DNA of 64,000 bases. It comes from Clostridiales bacterium. Its GTDB lineage: Bacteria > Bacillota > Clostridia > Christensenellales > CAG-138. The translations under genes and the position numbers were made by a program. Within the stretch, counting starts at the first letter, position 1. Every line of letters starts with the position of its first letter. The notes beneath the pieces were generated by a model. The model ran no database searches and was not told the origin of the DNA. It saw only the letters and a program-made list of their open reading frames with translations. Shown here piece by piece: positions 17,488 through 22,956 of this stretch. The DNA lies in the NCBI GenBank assembly GCA_012838425.1, contig DUPG01000014.1, positions 65,541-129,540 on the forward strand, written 5' to 3'.

Positions 17488-17958
17488 TTATTTTAGTTTT
17501 ATAGGAATGAACACTTCCATTTGCGCCCAGCCCTGCTTATTTATCACTTCCTGAGGTGTTATAATATGCCCCATAGAATAGTGATTCTCCCGTACATCAA
17601 GCTCGAACACTTCAGAGCTTCTGATGTACTCAAGTGCCTCGTTATACAGCTTGTCGTGCTCCGTGTCGTCGCCGTCAACGTAAGCGAATGTCAGGTAGTA
17701 GCCGCCGTCGAAGTCAACAACCTCATAATTCTCAGTATCCAAGCCCTCAAATATGGCATACCACCAAACCATTCCCTGCTTCTCCTCATCGAAGAAAAGG
17801 AAATCGCGCGGCATAAAGCTATATCTGTCAGGCGGCGTAATCTTCGAAAAATACTCGTTAAACTTCCCCAACACCCCGTTTTCCGAGAAGTCAAACTCTG
17901 TATCCACGCCTGACGATACTGCTGAAAAAGGAGGCAAGTAAACTATTCTGAAATTCAT
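17488..17958 (-). CDS. GyrI-like / effector-binding-domain family small protein (tentative)
   Basis: 156-aa cytosolic protein. The Y/F/W-rich pattern resembles SOUL/GyrI-like ligand-binding folds. Its start overlaps the rho stop (ATGA). Confidence 0.4.
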
Positions 17959-19751
17959 GAGTTATTTCTTAATGGGGTGTAGCCGTCCTTCTCATAAATA
18001 TTGAACAGCTGCTGCAGCTTCTTTATAAATTCAGCGTTTGATGAGGTTTTGTCAAGCAACGATATGAATTGCTCTGTAACCTCGTTGGGATTGCCGGTTG
18101 ACAGCACCCTGCGCAGCGTCATCATGCTCTCGTATTCCTCGGTAGTAAGCAAAAGGTCATCTCTGCGCGTGCCGGACTTGTAAATATCTATTGCGGGGAA
18201 TATGCGCTTCTCAGACAGCTTTCTGTCTAAGTGAATTTCCATATTGCCCGTACCCTTGAACTCCTCATAAATCATATCGTCCATGCGGCTGCCGGTTTCA
18301 ACAAGCGCGGTCGCGATAATGGTCAAGCTGCCGCCGCCCTCTATGTTTCTTGCCGCGCCGAAGAAGCGCTTTGGCTTGTATAGTGCGCTTGGGTCCATAC
18401 CGCCCGATAGCGTCTTGCCCGTTCCGGGAAGCGTTATGTTGTATGTGCGTACCAGTCTTGTAATAGAGTCCAACAGCACAACCACATCCTTGCCATGCTC
18501 AACAAGGCGCATAGCTCTTTCCATTACCATTTCAGCTACTTTTATGTGGTTATCGGGACGCTCGTCGAAGGTTGAGAAAAGCACCTCGCCCTTTGTTGAA
18601 CGCTGCATATCGGTTACTTCCTCGGGGCGCTCGTCAATCAAAAGCACTATCAAATGAACATCGGGATGATTTGCCGTAATACCGTTTGCGATATTTTTAA
18701 GAAGTGTAGTCTTACCTGCCTTGGGCTGGCTCACTATCAAGCCTCTCTGACCCTTGCCTATGGGAGCTATAAGGTCTATCAAGCGTATAGCCAAGTTATT
18801 GTCGCCCGCGTGCTCAAGCGTTAAGCGTTCGTTCGGGAATATAGGTACTAGCTCCTCGAAGGGCTTTCTGCTTCCCACGCTTTCGGGGTCGTCGCCGTTA
18901 ATTGCTGTAATGTAGTAAAGCGCTAAATATTTTTCGCCTTCCTTTGATTGGCGAGCCTTGCCTGCAATCCAGTCGCCTGTTTTTAGTCCGAAGCGTCTAA
19001 TCTGCGCGTTGGAAACATATATGTCGCGCGCCCCGGGCAAATAGTTATCCGAACGCAAAAAGCCGAATCCGTCTGTCAAAACTTCCAAAACGCCTTCGCA
19101 GATATGGAAATCATCGGGATCTTCAATTGTAGGTGGCTGCTGATAATATATCTGTGCCGCATCTGTGATTTCAGGTTCAGTCGGCTGTGGATAGAAGGGC
19201 TGCTGGTATGTGTCGCGCCTTTGATAAGGCTGTTGATATTGTTGATTGTATCCGGGCTGCTCGTAAGGGTTCATATCCTGATTGGGATGCGGATAGTTGC
19301 TGCCATAGTATGGCGTGCGCTGCTGGTATGTGTTATCCTGCCTGTACGGCTTCTTGTACGGCTGCTGATATTGAGTGCGCTGCTGATAAGGATAGTTGTT
19401 GCGATTAGGCGAATAGCCCGGGGTGTAGCCCTGCTGCGGCGGATATTGCCTTTGCTGCTGAGGGCGCATAGTGTGTTCCATCTGCGAAACGGGCGCTCTC
19501 ATAGGGTCCTCGTATATTTCCTGATGCGGAGGTGCATACGGAGCAGCAGGAGCCATTTGTTCCGGCTCAAGCTCCGGCTTTTGCGGTTCGGCTGTATCCG
19601 TGCTGTGAGAAGGCTTCTTAACAACGCCGCCTGCCATAATAATGTCGATAAGCTCGGATTTGCGATACTTGGTGATTGATTTTACACCCTGTGCCTTCGC
19701 AATCTCACGAAGATCCATCAAACTTTTTTCTTCTAAAATCTCTCTGGTCAT
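17955..19751 (-). CDS. rho: Transcription termination factor Rho with a long low-complexity N-terminal insertion
   Basis: Rho_N ([25 protein letters not shown]), CSD-like RNA-binding domain, Walker [10 protein letters not shown], conserved C-terminus. Residues 45-212 are Q/Y/P/N-rich. Confidence 0.95.
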
Positions 19752-20091
19752 AAAATTCCCTACTTCTTTGCTTTTTTATTTTTTATTTTGTGAAAATTGG
19801 TTTACACACAAATTCGCTTAATAGGTACACTAATAGCGTAAGACATACGCATCTGATTTAATTATAATCATTATTGGTGGCCAATTAATCACAAACCTAA
19901 TAACATTAAATCTATTTTAATATGTATTATATGCGCATGTCAACCGGTTTATAATAATAGATAGATATATTTTGTTCTGCTTATACCTTAATTAAAGGCT
20001 TAGCAGTATAGTAATTATACGCAGGTCTGTAAAATATTATACCAATTGAAATCAAATAATATTCGAATTAGAACTTCAGTACTTTTTTATA

Positions 20092-20125
20092 TAAGAACAA
20101 ACGCCCTCAAAAGCATTTTGAGAGC
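20092..20125 (-). terminator. Probable terminator of rpsT
   Basis: ctcaaaa/ttttgag stem. On the minus strand it is followed by GTTTGTTCTT. Confidence 0.5.
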
Positions 20126-20151
20126 GCGGCATAGATTTCACAGCAAGTGAA

Positions 20152-21435: not shown

Positions 21436-22083
21436 CTATCTGCATCTAATGTTCGCAGTTGTGCGCGACATAGTTGCTGTAACATTGTTTTCGGTAAACA
21501 GGAATGTAGCCGTCACCCTATAATATCCGCGCGATAGCATATTAGACCTTATCGCTGAATAATAGTATGATTCGGAATTATACACATAACTGTTTCCTAT
21601 TCCGAAAACCGTCATCCATCTGCCGCCGCTATAGTATTGCAGCCTTAAAGAAGCTAAGCCCATCTTATAGACAGGACGGCGCGACAGCATGGCAGCCGAA
21701 ACGCAAATCTTACCCGGGCCGAAGCTGTTAATTGACAGCATTGCCGAACGCAATATAGTCTGTAATTGCGGCGACTTCATATCGTCGGTTTCGATTTCGG
21801 GCGCAGACCATGTTATAACGCTTGAATAAGTCGAAGAATACGATGATTCTCTAAGCCTTGAAAAAGCGTCAACATCTTTTTTGCGCAACACACTAAACCC
21901 AGAATCAGAAAAGAGCAAATCCTGCGAGCTGATTCCGAAATCCAACCTGCTGTCAGAAGCTAATCCGGGCTTCACAGCACCTTTCGCGCTATTCACTGCG
22001 AGTGATGCGTTAGCAGGCAAAAGCACAACCATTAGGCTCAATGTAACGAGCATTAGCACAACCGTTCTTTTTGCCTTACTCAT
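21436..22083 (-). CDS. Secreted protein of unknown function (signal peptide)
   Basis: AAGGAGGG RBS. N-terminus is MSKAKRTVVLMLVTLSLMVVLLPANA. Last gene of the sigma/anti-sigma unit. Confidence 0.6.
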   Translation of the reverse strand: MSKAKRTVVLMLVTLSLMVVLLPANASLAVNSAKGAVKPGLASDSRLDFGISSQDLLFSDSGFSVLRKKDVDAFSRLRESSYSSTYSSVITWSAPEIETDDMKSPQLQTILRSAMLSINSFGPGKICVSAAMLSRRPVYKMGLASLRLQYYSGGRWMTVFGIGNSYVYNSESYYYSAIRSNMLSRGYYRVTATFLFTENNVTATMSRTTANIRCR

Positions 22084-22101
22084 ATTCGCACCCTCCTTAT
22101 T

Positions 22102-22956
22102 CTATTGCATATAGAGCATGCTGAGCAGCTCTAATAATTCCTCACCCTCTATGTCGGTAATAATATGATATACGGAGTTCTCAATGTTCCAAATAACTGC
22201 CGTTTCACCTTCGTTATATGTAATTATATGCTCTATGCCATTTATGCTTACAGCGTCGTATTCGCCTGTCTTGCTCTCGGCTGTGATTACGAAGGCAGTA
22301 TCGGCACTTGGGAACATATTATATGTATAGTAAAAATAGTTACCGCTATCGTTTTGATATTCAATAGACAGCGAAATATTCGCGCCACTGCCTGCACCTA
22401 ATATATTATGTATCCTAAAATTATAGTTTGTCAAGTCGAAAATAAGGGGATTTATTCGAAGCTCAGCACAAGCATCGTCAATACTATTGTATTCTTTATA
22501 TCCATTTGAAGGTGTGGTCGGGAACTCTATCGGGTCGGGAGTATTGCCGGGGTTGCTTTTGCCCGAATAGTCTATATAGCCTATTTGCCCAGTTATAATA
22601 GTCTTCCATACATCTATGCCGAAAGCGTAGGCTATGCCAGTTGAAGCGGCTATGAATATTATTATCGCCAACGAATAAGCAAGCACCCTGCGTGCAAGCG
22701 TATGCACGCAAGGCTGCTTTGCTTCTGTGCGCCTGCCCCCCCTCAATAAAGCCTGCGCATAGGATATGGTATCTAAACATTCAGACATCAGAGCCGCATC
22801 GCGTTCATGCTCATCTTTGCTTAACTCGCTCCAGTAAATTTCTTCGCAGGAACTAATCAAGCGTTTTAGATCGCCATATCGACATCTCTTATTCGGTTTT
22901 CCCCCAAATAATCGCATTATCTCTATCTCCCTATCTAAATAGCGCAGCTTTTTCAA
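22102..22956 (-). CDS. Putative anti-sigma factor: single-pass membrane protein with a DUF4367-like extracellular domain
   Basis: Cytoplasmic N-terminus, TM helix VLAYSLAIIIFIAASTGIAYAF, C-terminal ..VIWNIENSVYHIITDIEGEELLELLSML. An alternative start at 22917 (ATG after AGGGAG) is possible. Confidence 0.6.
   Translation of the reverse strand: MKKLRYLDREIEIMRLFGGKPNKRCRYGDLKRLISSCEEIYWSELSKDEHERDAALMSECLDTISYAQALLRGGRRTEAKQPCVHTLARRVLAYSLAIIIFIAASTGIAYAFGIDVWKTIITGQIGYIDYSGKSNPGNTPDPIEFPTTPSNGYKEYNSIDDACAELRINPLIFDLTNYNFRIHNILGAGSGANISLSIEYQNDSGNYFYYTYNMFPSADTAFVITAESKTGEYDAVSINGIEHIITYNEGETAVIWNIENSVYHIITDIEGEELLELLSMLYMQ

What the first reader, a model, noticed from the sequence alone, without database searches (positions are those of the whole stretch)
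19116..19619. Rho carries a ~170-aa Q/Y/P/N-rich, prion-like N-terminal insertion with Sup35-like YQQ oligopeptide repeats
Seen: low-complexity sequence sits between the Rho_N helix bundle (aa 1-44) and the CSD RNA-binding domain (from about aa 213). In its 96-aa core (aa 95-190, nt 19182-19469) I count by hand 24 Q, 18 Y, 17 P and 8 N, with no long hydrophobic stretch. Motifs recur: [30 protein letters not shown]. Known: Clostridium botulinum Rho has an N/Q-rich candidate prion domain, and it was shown experimentally to switch Rho into a self-propagating, termination-defective state (Yuan and Hochschild, 2017). Yeast Sup35 uses PQGGYQQYN-type repeats. Inference: this Rho may undergo aggregation, prion-like conversion or phase separation, which would give heritable genome-wide read-through. 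The Y/P-rich composition and the length differ from the C. botulinum example as I recall it.
Basis: partly seen in the sequence, partly recalled or inferred. Interest (0 to 1): 0.7.

Follow-up and report, generated by a model that had tools for sequence, protein, structure and literature searches.

The report
Tyrosine/glutamine-rich disordered insert in Rho
The transcription terminator Rho of this uncultured Clostridiales bacterium carries a 168-residue disordered, Gln/Tyr/Pro-rich insert built like the "sticky" low-complexity domains of FUS and Sup35; this is a tyrosine-based variant of a known kind of Rho insertion and looks more suited to reversible clustering than to a heritable prion.

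Summary
Residues 45-212 (nt 19116-19619) are an insertion between the Rho_N helix bundle and the RNA-binding domain. Q, P and Y are enriched 7.6-, 5- and 3-fold; N is not enriched. YQQ[P/R] occurs 6 times against 0.17 expected. AlphaFold2 and FoldIndex both predict disorder.

The prion reading is only partly supported. This protein falls below threshold on all three predictors I could run: PAPA -0.098 (cut-off 0.05), PrionScan composition 47.4 bits (cut-off 50) and 29 Q/N per 80 residues (cut-off 30). Its 18% scattered proline is the cause. It has the lowest PAPA score of 14 related lineages; 7 of the 14 pass.

Across those lineages the conserved features are about 22 aromatic residues (CV 0.08), evenly spaced, and an acidic aromatic-free linker. 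Gly, Pro and Asn vary freely. This is the sticker-and-spacer grammar of FUS-like domains, so reversible condensation is the best-supported mechanism. It is inferred, not shown.

Disordered, prion-like or phase-separating Rho insertions are already known. The tyrosine-based type is rare among Rho insertions and was not found described in the papers searched.

The parts
17955..19751 (-). rho coding sequence, 598 aa. Identical to NCBI HHT86767.1 (MAG TPA: Clostridiales bacterium).
   Evidence: ORF list. NCBIfam Rho equivalogs score 625.5 and 595 bits, above their cut-offs. Exact identity to cluster member P0271.
19620..19751 (-). Rho_N helix bundle, aa 1-44.
   Evidence: Pfam PF07498 matches aa 6-37. 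AF2 predicts helices at 3-8, 11-20 and 31-39 with pLDDT 85-91. It is 98% identical to the closest relative L081.
19116..19619 (-). N-terminal insertion domain (NID), aa 45-212: a disordered low-complexity region.
   Evidence: No Pfam family covers it. It has no PDB sequence match even at E<=10. pLDDT is about 30 with no secondary structure. FoldIndex is below 0. Solved Rho structures align only from aa 213-218 onward.
19470..19619 (-). Sub-region 1 of the NID, aa 45-94: an acidic Pro/Ala/Glu-rich linker with few aromatics (2 Tyr).
   Evidence: Composition is P10, E7, A6, with a net negative charge. The same aromatic-poor acidic linker (net -3 to -16, 0-4 aromatics) is found in all 14 dereplicated lineages. 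It is the fastest-evolving part, 44% identical to L081.
19182..19469 (-). Sub-region 2 of the NID, aa 95-190: the Tyr/Gln/Pro-rich core (Q 25%, Y 19%, P 18%, R 8%) with recurrent YQQ[P/R] motifs.
   Evidence: Counts. Motif enrichment. Aromatic residues occur about every 5 residues, and over the wider aa 101-215 segment they are more evenly spaced than in shuffles (z=-1.77, p=0.03). The aa 101-205 stretch is 71% identical to L081, and 21 of the 23 aromatic positions in the whole NID are conserved.
19116..19181 (-). Sub-region 3 of the NID, aa 191-212: the acidic junction to the RNA-binding domain (…[22 protein letters not shown]).
   Evidence: Net charge is -2 to -6 in 15-aa windows. Y202, Y203 and P207 are invariant in the alignment. 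Relatives carry a conserved YYNKEYGTSNPAVPxLLEGGEC motif here, which in this protein is shortened by 8 residues and has diverged.
18882..19097 (-). Rho RNA-binding (CSD/OB) domain, aa 219-290, holding the primary RNA-binding site.
   Evidence: Pfam PF07497, E=5.8e-32. The GFGFLR and DIYVS motifs are present in the sequence.
18174..18788 (-). RecA-type ATPase domain, aa 322-526, with Walker A (PKAGKT) and Walker B (LLIDE).
   Evidence: Pfam PF00006, E=1.9e-27. The motifs are visible in the translation. It aligns to solved Rho structures at E about 1e-136.
19914..19943 (-). Promoter-like site (TTGACA-18-TAAAAT, 11 of 12 matches) about 160 nt upstream of the rho start. A consensus match only.
   Evidence: Promoter scan. 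The number of sites in the region is not above the shuffle expectation.
20101..20127 (-). Terminator-like hairpin plus T-run after rpsT, separating rpsT from rho.
   Evidence: 12-bp stem followed by a T-rich tail. The upstream ORF matches Ribosomal_S20p.

Best explanation
This is a functional Rho factor with a 168-residue intrinsically disordered insertion (NID) between the N-terminal helix bundle and the RNA-binding OB domain. In the hexamer, six such tails would radiate from the RNA-loading face.

The insertion has two parts: an acidic, aromatic-poor Pro/Ala/Glu linker, and a Tyr/Gln-rich core. In the core, about 22 tyrosines spaced roughly every 5 residues act as 'stickers', and Gln/Pro/Asn/Arg act as 'spacers'.

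The most likely mechanism (inferred) is that Tyr-Tyr and Tyr-Arg contacts, multiplied about six-fold by the ring (around 130 stickers per hexamer), together with RNA, drive reversible and concentration- or stress-dependent self-association (condensation) of Rho. This would change how much Rho is available at terminators, or how active it is there.

In this species, many positions that are Gln or Gly in relatives are Pro. That should keep assemblies dynamic and disfavour a stable cross-beta prion state.

Shown here: the anatomy, the predicted disorder, the composition, the motif enrichment, and the conservation of sticker number and spacing. Inferred: condensation itself, and whether it raises or lowers termination.
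For: - Genuine Rho with an insertion at the canonical site.
- Predicted disorder: pLDDT about 30 with no secondary structure over aa 47-212, and FoldIndex below 0.
- Composition close to FUS LC and Sup35 N in Tyr and Gln. Aromatics per 100 aa are 19.8 in the core and 13.7 in the whole NID, against 12.6 for FUS and 18.7 for Sup35.
- In 14 lineages whose NIDs are less than 60% identical to each other (34-41% to the window), aromatic count is 22.4 +/- 1.8 (CV 0.08; Poisson expectation 0.21). By contrast G ranges 4-29, P 12-32 and N 5-22.
- Aromatic residues are more evenly spaced than in shuffles in 12 of 14 lineages at z <= -2 (z -2.3 to -4.5). The window gives z=-1.77, p=0.03; only P0019 shows no trend.
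- Tyr columns are the best conserved in the NID: 57% conserved, against 27-28% for Q and P columns.
- Against the nearest relative, pN is 0.18 while pS is 0.86 in the Y/Q core. 21 of 23 aromatics are kept, and the dominant change is P<->Q.
- Bipartite acidic-linker plus Y/Q-core layout in all 14 lineages.
- Known grammar. Tyr (with Arg) drives FUS-family phase separation, and Tyr-Tyr contacts drive it for isolated prion-like domains (review PMC7865556). That aromatic valence and even patterning favour liquid condensates over aggregates is my own knowledge of Martin et al. 2020, Science 367:694.
- Precedent in Rho. The B. thetaiotaomicron Rho IDR drives condensation that raises termination activity and gut fitness (PMC13269538; review).
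- Prion predictors are below threshold for this protein.
Against: - Nothing experimental was done.
- No dedicated phase-separation predictor could be run.
- In BtRho the driver of condensation is a Lys/Glu-rich segment binding RNA, and the N/Q-rich prion-like part is regulatory. The one Rho precedent therefore uses a different grammar.
- The window protein's own patterning signal is weak (p=0.03).
- Alignment of low-complexity sequence tends to line up tyrosines artificially.
- The 14 lineages are related, so low variance in Tyr number partly reflects shared ancestry.
- 18% proline could weaken any self-association, not only amyloid formation.
Confidence: 0.45

Rival explanations
1. True prion, as in C. 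botulinum Rho. The insert converts to a self-propagating amyloid that inactivates Rho and gives heritable genome-wide read-through.
For: - Q/Y-rich composition and YQQ motifs like the Sup35 repeats.
- The scores are only just below two composition thresholds: 47.4 of 50 bits, and 29 of 30 Q/N.
- Sister lineages pass. 7 of 14 dereplicated lineages reach PAPA >= 0.05, and 10 of 14 reach PrionScan >= 50 bits. The nearest relative L081 scores 58.1 bits and 36 Q/N.
- Precedent: CbRho-PrD forms amyloid and a ClpB-dependent heritable state.
Against: - PAPA is -0.098, the lowest of 119 homologues and of the 14 lineages. The window also has the highest proline fraction of the set.
- Its 31 prolines are scattered, not clustered. 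This is the pattern reported to disfavour prion formation and penalised by PrionScan.
- There is no Asn-rich or proline-free stretch comparable to the CbRho core NNNNSNFNNNSNNNSSFNNSN.
- Even spacing of aromatics is a feature associated with suppressing aggregation (own knowledge of Martin et al. 2020).
Confidence: 0.1
2. RNA-recognition extension. The insert mainly adds RNA contacts next to the primary binding site and alters rut-site choice or affinity, as shown for the insertions of Micrococcus luteus, Mycobacterium tuberculosis and Bacteroides fragilis Rho. No higher-order assembly would be needed.
For: - It sits directly beside the primary RNA-binding domain.
- The Y/Q core (aa 95-190) carries net positive charge (R8 + K2 against D3 + E1), and Tyr can stack on bases.
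- The literature states that insertion domains raise RNA affinity and aid Rut recognition.
Against: - Only 14 basic residues in 168, and the whole insert is net negative.
- It lacks the Arg-rich RxR-type motifs that mark the RNA-binding insertions.
- The conserved features are Tyr number and spacing, while Arg positions are not conserved: 6% column conservation.
- This reading is not exclusive of the condensation model.
Confidence: 0.25
3. Tolerated low-complexity filler. The insert is a fast-evolving spacer produced by slippage and mutation bias, with no specific function beyond being harmless.
For: - NIDs are hypervariable across Clostridia: KE-rich, PA/K-rich, RE-rich or absent.
- Among 79 proteins with at least 97% identical cores there are 71 distinct NIDs and 16 lengths.
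- A relative carries an in-frame stop inside the NID.
- Harrison 2019 found Rho prion-like domains sporadic in evolution.
Against: - Aromatic number is under-dispersed while other residues vary.
- The spacing is non-random.
- YQQ[PR] occurs 6 times against 0.17 expected.
- pN is far below pS in the core.
- There is no DNA tandem array in this species to explain it by slippage.
- Length stays within 158-223 aa across the 14 lineages.
Confidence: 0.12

Closest known systems
Clostridium botulinum Rho candidate prion domain (Pallares 2016, PMC4703818; Yuan & Hochschild 2017)
   Same: It is a disordered polar low-complexity insertion at the same position in Rho of a Clostridia-class bacterium. It is flagged by yeast-prion-style composition measures.
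   Different: - The CbRho core is 67% Asn and 24% Ser, with no Pro, Tyr or Gln. The window insert is Q 18%, Y 13%, P 18%, with Asn not enriched.
- The CbRho insertion is about 119 aa; this one is 168 aa.
- CbRho passes PAPA; this protein does not, at -0.098.
- There is no sequence homology between the inserts.
Bacteroides thetaiotaomicron Rho IDR (Krypotou 2023; Krypotou 2026, PMC13269538)
   Same: It is a large disordered insertion in Rho with sub-domains, including a prion-like part. Composition rather than sequence is conserved among relatives. This is the experimental precedent that a Rho insertion controls condensation and termination.
   Different: - BtRho has a 309-aa insertion with a 176-aa Lys/Glu-rich driver of RNA coacervation, a conserved BCD motif and a 68-aa N/Q-rich regulatory PLD.
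- The window insert has no KE-rich segment and is Tyr-based.
- ppGpp control cannot be assessed here.
Arg-rich insertion domains of Micrococcus luteus / Mycobacterium tuberculosis Rho
   Same: Same insertion site, and disordered. The first ~220 residues are unresolved in the M. tuberculosis Rho cryo-EM structure.
   Different: Those are Arg/Asp/Gly/Asn-rich, with RxR and EDDV motifs, and increase RNA affinity. The window insert has 5% Arg and none of those motifs. Among the other insertion-bearing Rho representatives, mean Tyr content is 2%.
FUS / hnRNPA1-type prion-like low-complexity domains (eukaryotic RNA-binding proteins)
   Same: - Tyr density: 13.7 per 100 aa in the NID against 12.6 for the FUS LC.
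- Even aromatic spacing, polar spacers and attachment to an RNA-binding module.
- Sticker number is conserved while spacers drift.
   Different: - Spacers are Gln/Pro/Arg rather than Gly/Ser.
- Bacterial origin, fused to a hexameric helicase.
- There is no homology, so this is convergence.
Yeast Sup35 N domain and its PQGGYQQYN oligopeptide repeats
   Same: A shared YQQ core motif, and high Q and Y content (Q 25% and Y 19% in the core against 28% and 16% in Sup35 N).
   Different: - Sup35 has 16% Asn, 17% Gly and only 5% Pro, plus a proline-free Q/N-rich nucleation tract. Here P is 18% and G 4%.
- The Sup35 repeats are a regular tandem array. Here the motifs are irregular and there is no DNA tandem repeat.
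- Sup35 passes all three predictors and this protein passes none.

Membership tests
Transcription termination factor Rho (NCBIfam TIGR00767 / PRK09376) | Whole-protein score above the curated equivalog cut-off. | tested here: met
   625.5 bits against a cut-off of 315, and 595 bits against 509.45.
Transcription termination factor Rho (NCBIfam TIGR00767 / PRK09376) | Three-domain architecture (Rho_N, Rho_RNA_bind, RecA-type ATPase) with Walker A and B motifs. | tested here: met
   Pfam PF07498, PF07497 and PF00006 are all above gathering scores. PKAGKT and [10 protein letters not shown] are present. E is about 1e-136 to solved Rho structures.
[quoted passage not shown] 2024, PMC11347177; D'Heygere 2013) | Extra polypeptide between the N-terminal domain and the RNA-binding domain. 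| tested here: met
   There are 181 residues between the Pfam Rho_N match (ends aa 37) and the Rho_RNA_bind match (starts aa 219). The profile alignment implies an insertion of about 166 aa.
[quoted passage not shown] 2024, PMC11347177; D'Heygere 2013) | Exceptional composition and predicted intrinsic disorder of the insertion. | tested here: met
   Q, P and Y are enriched 7.6-, 5- and 3-fold. pLDDT is about 30 and FoldIndex is below 0.
Yeast-type / CbRho-type prion-forming domain | PAPA prion propensity of at least 0.05 within a disordered region. | tested here: not met
   The maximum is -0.098. Controls: Sup35 0.098 and FUS LC 0.099. PAPA was re-implemented using the published odds ratios.
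Yeast-type / CbRho-type prion-forming domain | Q/N-rich composition: PrionScan at least 50 bits per 60 aa, or at least 30 Q/N in 80 aa. | tested here: not met
   47.4 bits before the proline penalty, and 29 Q/N per 80 aa. Both are just under threshold. PLAAC was not run.
Yeast-type / CbRho-type prion-forming domain | Forms amyloid and a self-propagating, chaperone-dependent heritable state. | not testable with these tools
   This needs fibril, SDS-resistance and reporter-inheritance assays.
FUS-like sticker-and-spacer prion-like domain (functional analogy, not homology) | High aromatic valence, conserved among orthologues. | tested here: met
   There are 23 aromatics in the window insert. Across 14 lineages the count is 22.4 +/- 1.8, CV 0.08.
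FUS-like sticker-and-spacer prion-like domain (functional analogy, not homology) | Aromatic residues more evenly spaced than random. | tested here: inconclusive
   The window protein gives z=-1.77, p=0.03, which is weak. The signal is clear in 12 of 14 related lineages (z -2.3 to -4.5).
FUS-like sticker-and-spacer prion-like domain (functional analogy, not homology) | Undergoes phase separation dependent on the aromatic residues. | not testable with these tools
   This needs in vitro turbidity or microscopy with Tyr-to-Ser variants. No LLPS predictor was available.

The most novel reading that the evidence does not exclude
A whole clade of uncultured Clostridia has convergently evolved, on the essential Rho helicase, a FUS-like tyrosine sticker domain.
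- Sticker number (about 22 per protomer, about 130 per hexamer) and even spacing are held by selection.
- Spacer chemistry (Gly, Gln or Pro) drifts between lineages, and repeat number varies between near-identical strains.

Spacer chemistry and repeat number would then act as a natural dial, from liquid condensate (Pro-rich, as in this window) to prion-competent assemblies (Gly/Gln-rich sister lineages that pass PAPA). The result would be lineage-specific, possibly heritable, control of genome-wide termination.
Probability: 0.25. Interest if true: 0.65.

Novelty: new variant of a known kind. Interest (0 to 1): 0.4.

Why it matters
Rho sets the boundaries of transcription genome-wide, so any switch in its availability reprograms many genes at once. 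Two such switches are known, and both depend on insertions at this site: an Asn-rich prion in C. botulinum, and Lys/Glu-rich RNA coacervation in B. thetaiotaomicron.

A third, tyrosine-based grammar would matter for two reasons. It would show that the 'molecular grammar' worked out for eukaryotic FUS-family proteins also operates on a bacterial hexameric motor. It would also offer a natural series of variants for testing how valence and spacer chemistry separate liquid condensation from prion formation: 14 or more lineages that differ in Pro/Gly/Gln spacers, plus strain-level repeat-number variation.

If the insert proves inert, the case is an ordinary example of the already documented compositional diversity of Rho insertions.

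Tried and rejected
- DNA-level tandem repeats as the origin of the motifs. TRF found none in 19000-19760, and direct repeats are only degenerate. Rejected for this species. Relatives such as L082 do carry 12-39-nt periodic repeats.
- 'The closest relative lacks the insert' (P0002, 446 aa). Rejected. Its contig carries the whole insert, interrupted by one in-frame stop, so the gene was called in two pieces.
- dN/dS between the window and L081. Synonymous sites are saturated (pS 0.72-0.86), so no ratio could be estimated. Only pN and pS are reported.
- Species-representative genome scan to name the organism. The best hit is only 68% identical in its best segment, and those Clostridia carry unrelated insert types. 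Taxonomy remains 'uncultured Clostridiales bacterium'.
- Folded-domain explanations. There is no Pfam family over aa 45-212 and no PDB sequence match at E<=10. AF2 gives no structure there.
- The plus-strand ORFs overlapping the region (19104-19679 and 19187-19408). These are mirror images of the low-complexity coding strand. The Rho frame is continuous with homology on both sides, so they were not pursued.
- Rfam and tRNA scans of the whole window found nothing.
- Papers not held in the library: Toombs 2010, Yuan & Hochschild 2017 and Martin 2020. Statements resting on them are marked as my own knowledge or taken from reviews that cite them.
- PLAAC and FuzDrop could not be run. I did not try to reconstruct PLAAC's parameters from memory.
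Full report
**1. What is there**

The window encodes a 598-aa protein on the minus strand at 17955-19751.
- Pfam finds Rho_N (aa 6-37), Rho_RNA_bind (aa 219-290) and the RecA-type ATPase (aa 322-526).
- The two NCBIfam Rho equivalogs score 625.5 and 595 bits, well above their cut-offs. Query residues 4-578 align to profile positions 4-412, which implies an insertion of about 166 residues.
- Solved Rho structures align only from residue 213-218 onward, at E about 1e-136.
- The protein is identical to NCBI HHT86767.1, 'MAG TPA: transcription termination factor Rho [Clostridiales bacterium]', which has been seen on 25 contigs. The gene itself is therefore already in public databases, under a plain Rho annotation.

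**2.

The hand counts for aa 95-190 (Q 24, Y 18, P 17, N 8) and every listed motif are reproduced.
- Relative to 17 kb-worth of other long ORFs in the same window, Q is 7.6-fold enriched (P=2e-18), P 5-fold (2e-13) and Y 3-fold (5e-6).
- Hydrophobic residues are 7% against 33% in the background.
- Asn is not enriched (0.9-fold), so 'N-rich' should be dropped.
- Sequence order matters beyond composition. YQQ occurs 6 times against 0.72 in shuffles, and YQQ[P/R] 6 times against 0.17.
- The motifs are not a tandem array. TRF finds no repeat, and only degenerate 12-32-nt direct repeats exist.
- No other open frame in the 64 kb window has a comparable composition.

**3. Predicted disorder**

AlphaFold2, run with a 25-sequence alignment, gives pLDDT 85-91 for the helix bundle. 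Over aa 47-212 it gives pLDDT about 30 with no secondary structure. FoldIndex is negative from about aa 31 to 205. The segment matches no Pfam family and no PDB chain even at E<=10.

**4. Prion-type scoring**

I took the published PrionScan log-odds and the Toombs odds ratios from Table 1 of PMC3654983. I re-implemented PAPA (41-residue windows, FoldIndex gate, consecutive-proline rule), the PrionScan composition score (60 residues, 50-bit cut-off) and the Michelitsch-Weissman Q/N count (30 in 80).

| Sequence | PAPA (cut-off 0.05) | PrionScan bits (cut-off 50) | Max Q+N in 80 (cut-off 30) |
|---|---|---|---|
| Window Rho | -0.098 | 47.4 (before proline penalty) | 29 |

Two of the three misses are narrow, and PLAAC was not run. 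The reason for the low scores is proline: 31 of 168 residues, scattered. This is the pattern reported to oppose prion formation. The experimentally amyloidogenic CbRho core is 67% Asn and proline-free, a very different chemistry.

**5. Relatives**

The 120 best database hits are almost all 586-648-aa Rho proteins from uncultured Clostridia, with 156-221-aa Q/Y-rich inserts, many with GYQQ-type repeats.
- Of 119 full-length proteins, 101 pass PAPA and 113 pass PrionScan. The set is redundant, however.
- Dereplicating the inserts at 60% identity gives 14 lineages. Of these, 7 pass PAPA and 10 pass PrionScan. The window protein has the lowest PAPA score and the highest proline fraction.
- The nearest relative is L081 (GCA_012511925.1), 87% identical in the catalytic part. 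It keeps 21 of 23 aromatic positions. The commonest difference is Pro in the window against Gln in L081 (9 sites), a single-base change. L081 scores higher: PAPA 0.000, 58.1 bits, 36 Q/N.
- Amino-acid identity to L081 is 98% in Rho_N, 44% in the acidic linker, 71% in the Y/Q core and 87% in CSD plus ATPase. pN is 0.18 in the core against a saturated pS of 0.86. The core is thus constrained, though less so than the enzyme.

**6. What is conserved**

Across the 14 lineages the conserved features are not those scored by prion predictors.
- Aromatic number is conserved: 22.4 +/- 1.8, CV 0.08 against 0.21 for a Poisson count. Meanwhile Gly ranges 4-29, Pro 12-32 and Asn 5-22.
- Aromatic spacing is conserved. 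It is more even than in shuffles in 12 of 14 lineages (z -2.3 to -4.5). The window gives z=-1.77, p=0.03.
- Tyr columns are the best conserved in the insert: 57%, against 27-28% for Q and P columns.
- The bipartite layout is conserved: an acidic, essentially aromatic-free Pro/Ala/Glu linker followed by a near-neutral Y/Q core.

Caveats apply. The lineages are related, and aligners tend to stack tyrosines in low-complexity sequence. The contrast with freely varying Gly, Pro and Asn argues nonetheless that sticker valence is what selection sees.

**7. How common is this type**

A search of 1.84 billion 50%-identity representatives returned 150 top Rho proteins.
- A CSD motif was located in 132 of them, and 121 of those have at least 100 residues before it.
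- Only 7 have a 100-aa window with at least 12 Tyr and at least 15 Gln.
- The other insertions average 2% Tyr.
- Other Clostridia from the species-representative genomes have KE-rich, PA/K-rich or RE-rich inserts, or none.

On the literature side, the survey of Rho diversity (Moreira 2024) reports insertions in 26.6% of Rho. [quoted passage not shown] The word 'tyrosine' does not occur in that paper, in the 2025 review or in the mycobacterial LLPS preprint. No held paper combines 'termination factor Rho' with 'tyrosine-rich'. So the kind is known, and the tyrosine-based variant appears undescribed in the library searched.

**8. Mechanism**

Established knowledge is as follows.
- Insertions at this site lie at the outer, RNA-loading face of the hexamer.
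- In FUS-family proteins, tyrosines (with arginines) drive phase separation. Gln and Ser spacers harden assemblies and Gly keeps them fluid.
- Aromatic valence and even patterning favour liquid condensates over aggregates (own knowledge: Martin et al. 2020).
- BtRho condenses via its IDR, and this raises termination and fitness.
- CbRho forms a prion that lowers termination.

My inference is that six tails with about 23 aromatic stickers each make the hexamer highly multivalent. Reversible Tyr-Tyr, Tyr-Arg and RNA-mediated condensation is then the most likely behaviour. The Pro-rich spacers of this species bias it towards dynamic rather than amyloid assemblies. I cannot tell from sequence whether condensation would increase or decrease termination.

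The rival readings are a true prion (about 0.1), a pure RNA-affinity extension (about 0.25, and not exclusive of condensation) and neutral filler (about 0.12).

**9. Verdict**

- Novelty: a new variant of a known kind.
- Interest is moderate. The general phenomenon is well documented. The conserved tyrosine grammar and the natural spacer and valence series would nonetheless be a useful experimental system.

Noticed in passing
L081 2527-4341 (GCA_012511925.1, JAAZFD010000056.1), corresponding to window ~19320: In the closest relative, rho is interrupted by one in-frame stop inside the insertion: ...KKPYRQDGNY*QRPYYGSNY, where the window has ...[13 protein letters not shown]. The gene was therefore called as a 142-aa Rho_N ORF plus a 446-aa ORF with a non-ATG start. 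This could be a MAG or consensus error, a population variant, or a real nonsense mutation that would yield a Rho lacking its N-terminal bundle.
   Followed up: partly
Homologues P0003-P0120; DNA of one member at L082 2864-3083: Among 79 Rho proteins whose CSD plus ATPase parts are at least 97% identical, there are 71 distinct inserts with 16 different lengths (161-191 aa) and 18-25 aromatics. The DNA of one member shows 12-, 15- and 39-nt periodic repeats (85% identical copies). This points to strain-level repeat-number variation in the insert. The window's species shows none: 7 full-length variants differ only by point substitutions, 6 of 7 of them within aa 39-211.
   Followed up: partly
window 19116-19160 (aa 198-212) versus alignment A1 columns ~308-335: Relatives carry a nearly invariant motif, (E/D)GYYNKEYGTSNPAVPxLLEGGEC(G)D(C/A), just before the RNA-binding domain. 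It also occurs in a Clostridiales Rho with a quite different Pro/Ala/Lys-rich insert (L004). In the window protein and in L081 it is shortened by 8 residues and diverged to [18 protein letters not shown]. Only YY and one Pro stay invariant. Its role is unknown. It may be a short folded or binding element at the insert/CSD junction.
   Followed up: partly
window 17488-17958 (minus strand): A 156-aa ORF starts 4 nt before the rho stop codon (overlap at 17955-17958), which suggests translational coupling. It has no Pfam or NCBIfam match. It is 73% identical and in the same position in L081. In the more distant relative L082, rho is instead followed by rpmE (L31), the usual Firmicutes arrangement.
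   Followed up: partly
window 19752-20151: There is a 400-nt AT-rich spacer between rpsT and rho. It holds a strong terminator-like hairpin after rpsT (20127-20101) and a near-consensus promoter-like site (19943-19914). That would give rho its own promoter and a leader of about 160 nt. Rho autoregulation through leaders is known elsewhere but was not examined here.
   Followed up: no
window 1-64000: No tRNA gene and no Rfam family at gathering threshold were found anywhere in the 64 kb window.
   Followed up: no
window 21436-22956 (minus strand): Two adjacent ORFs lie upstream of the cobalamin adenosyltransferase-like gene. One is 215 aa, with an apparent hydrophobic N-terminal segment (read by eye, no predictor run) and no family match. 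The other is 284 aa and matches only DUF4367. Neither matches any NCBIfam model.
   Followed up: no
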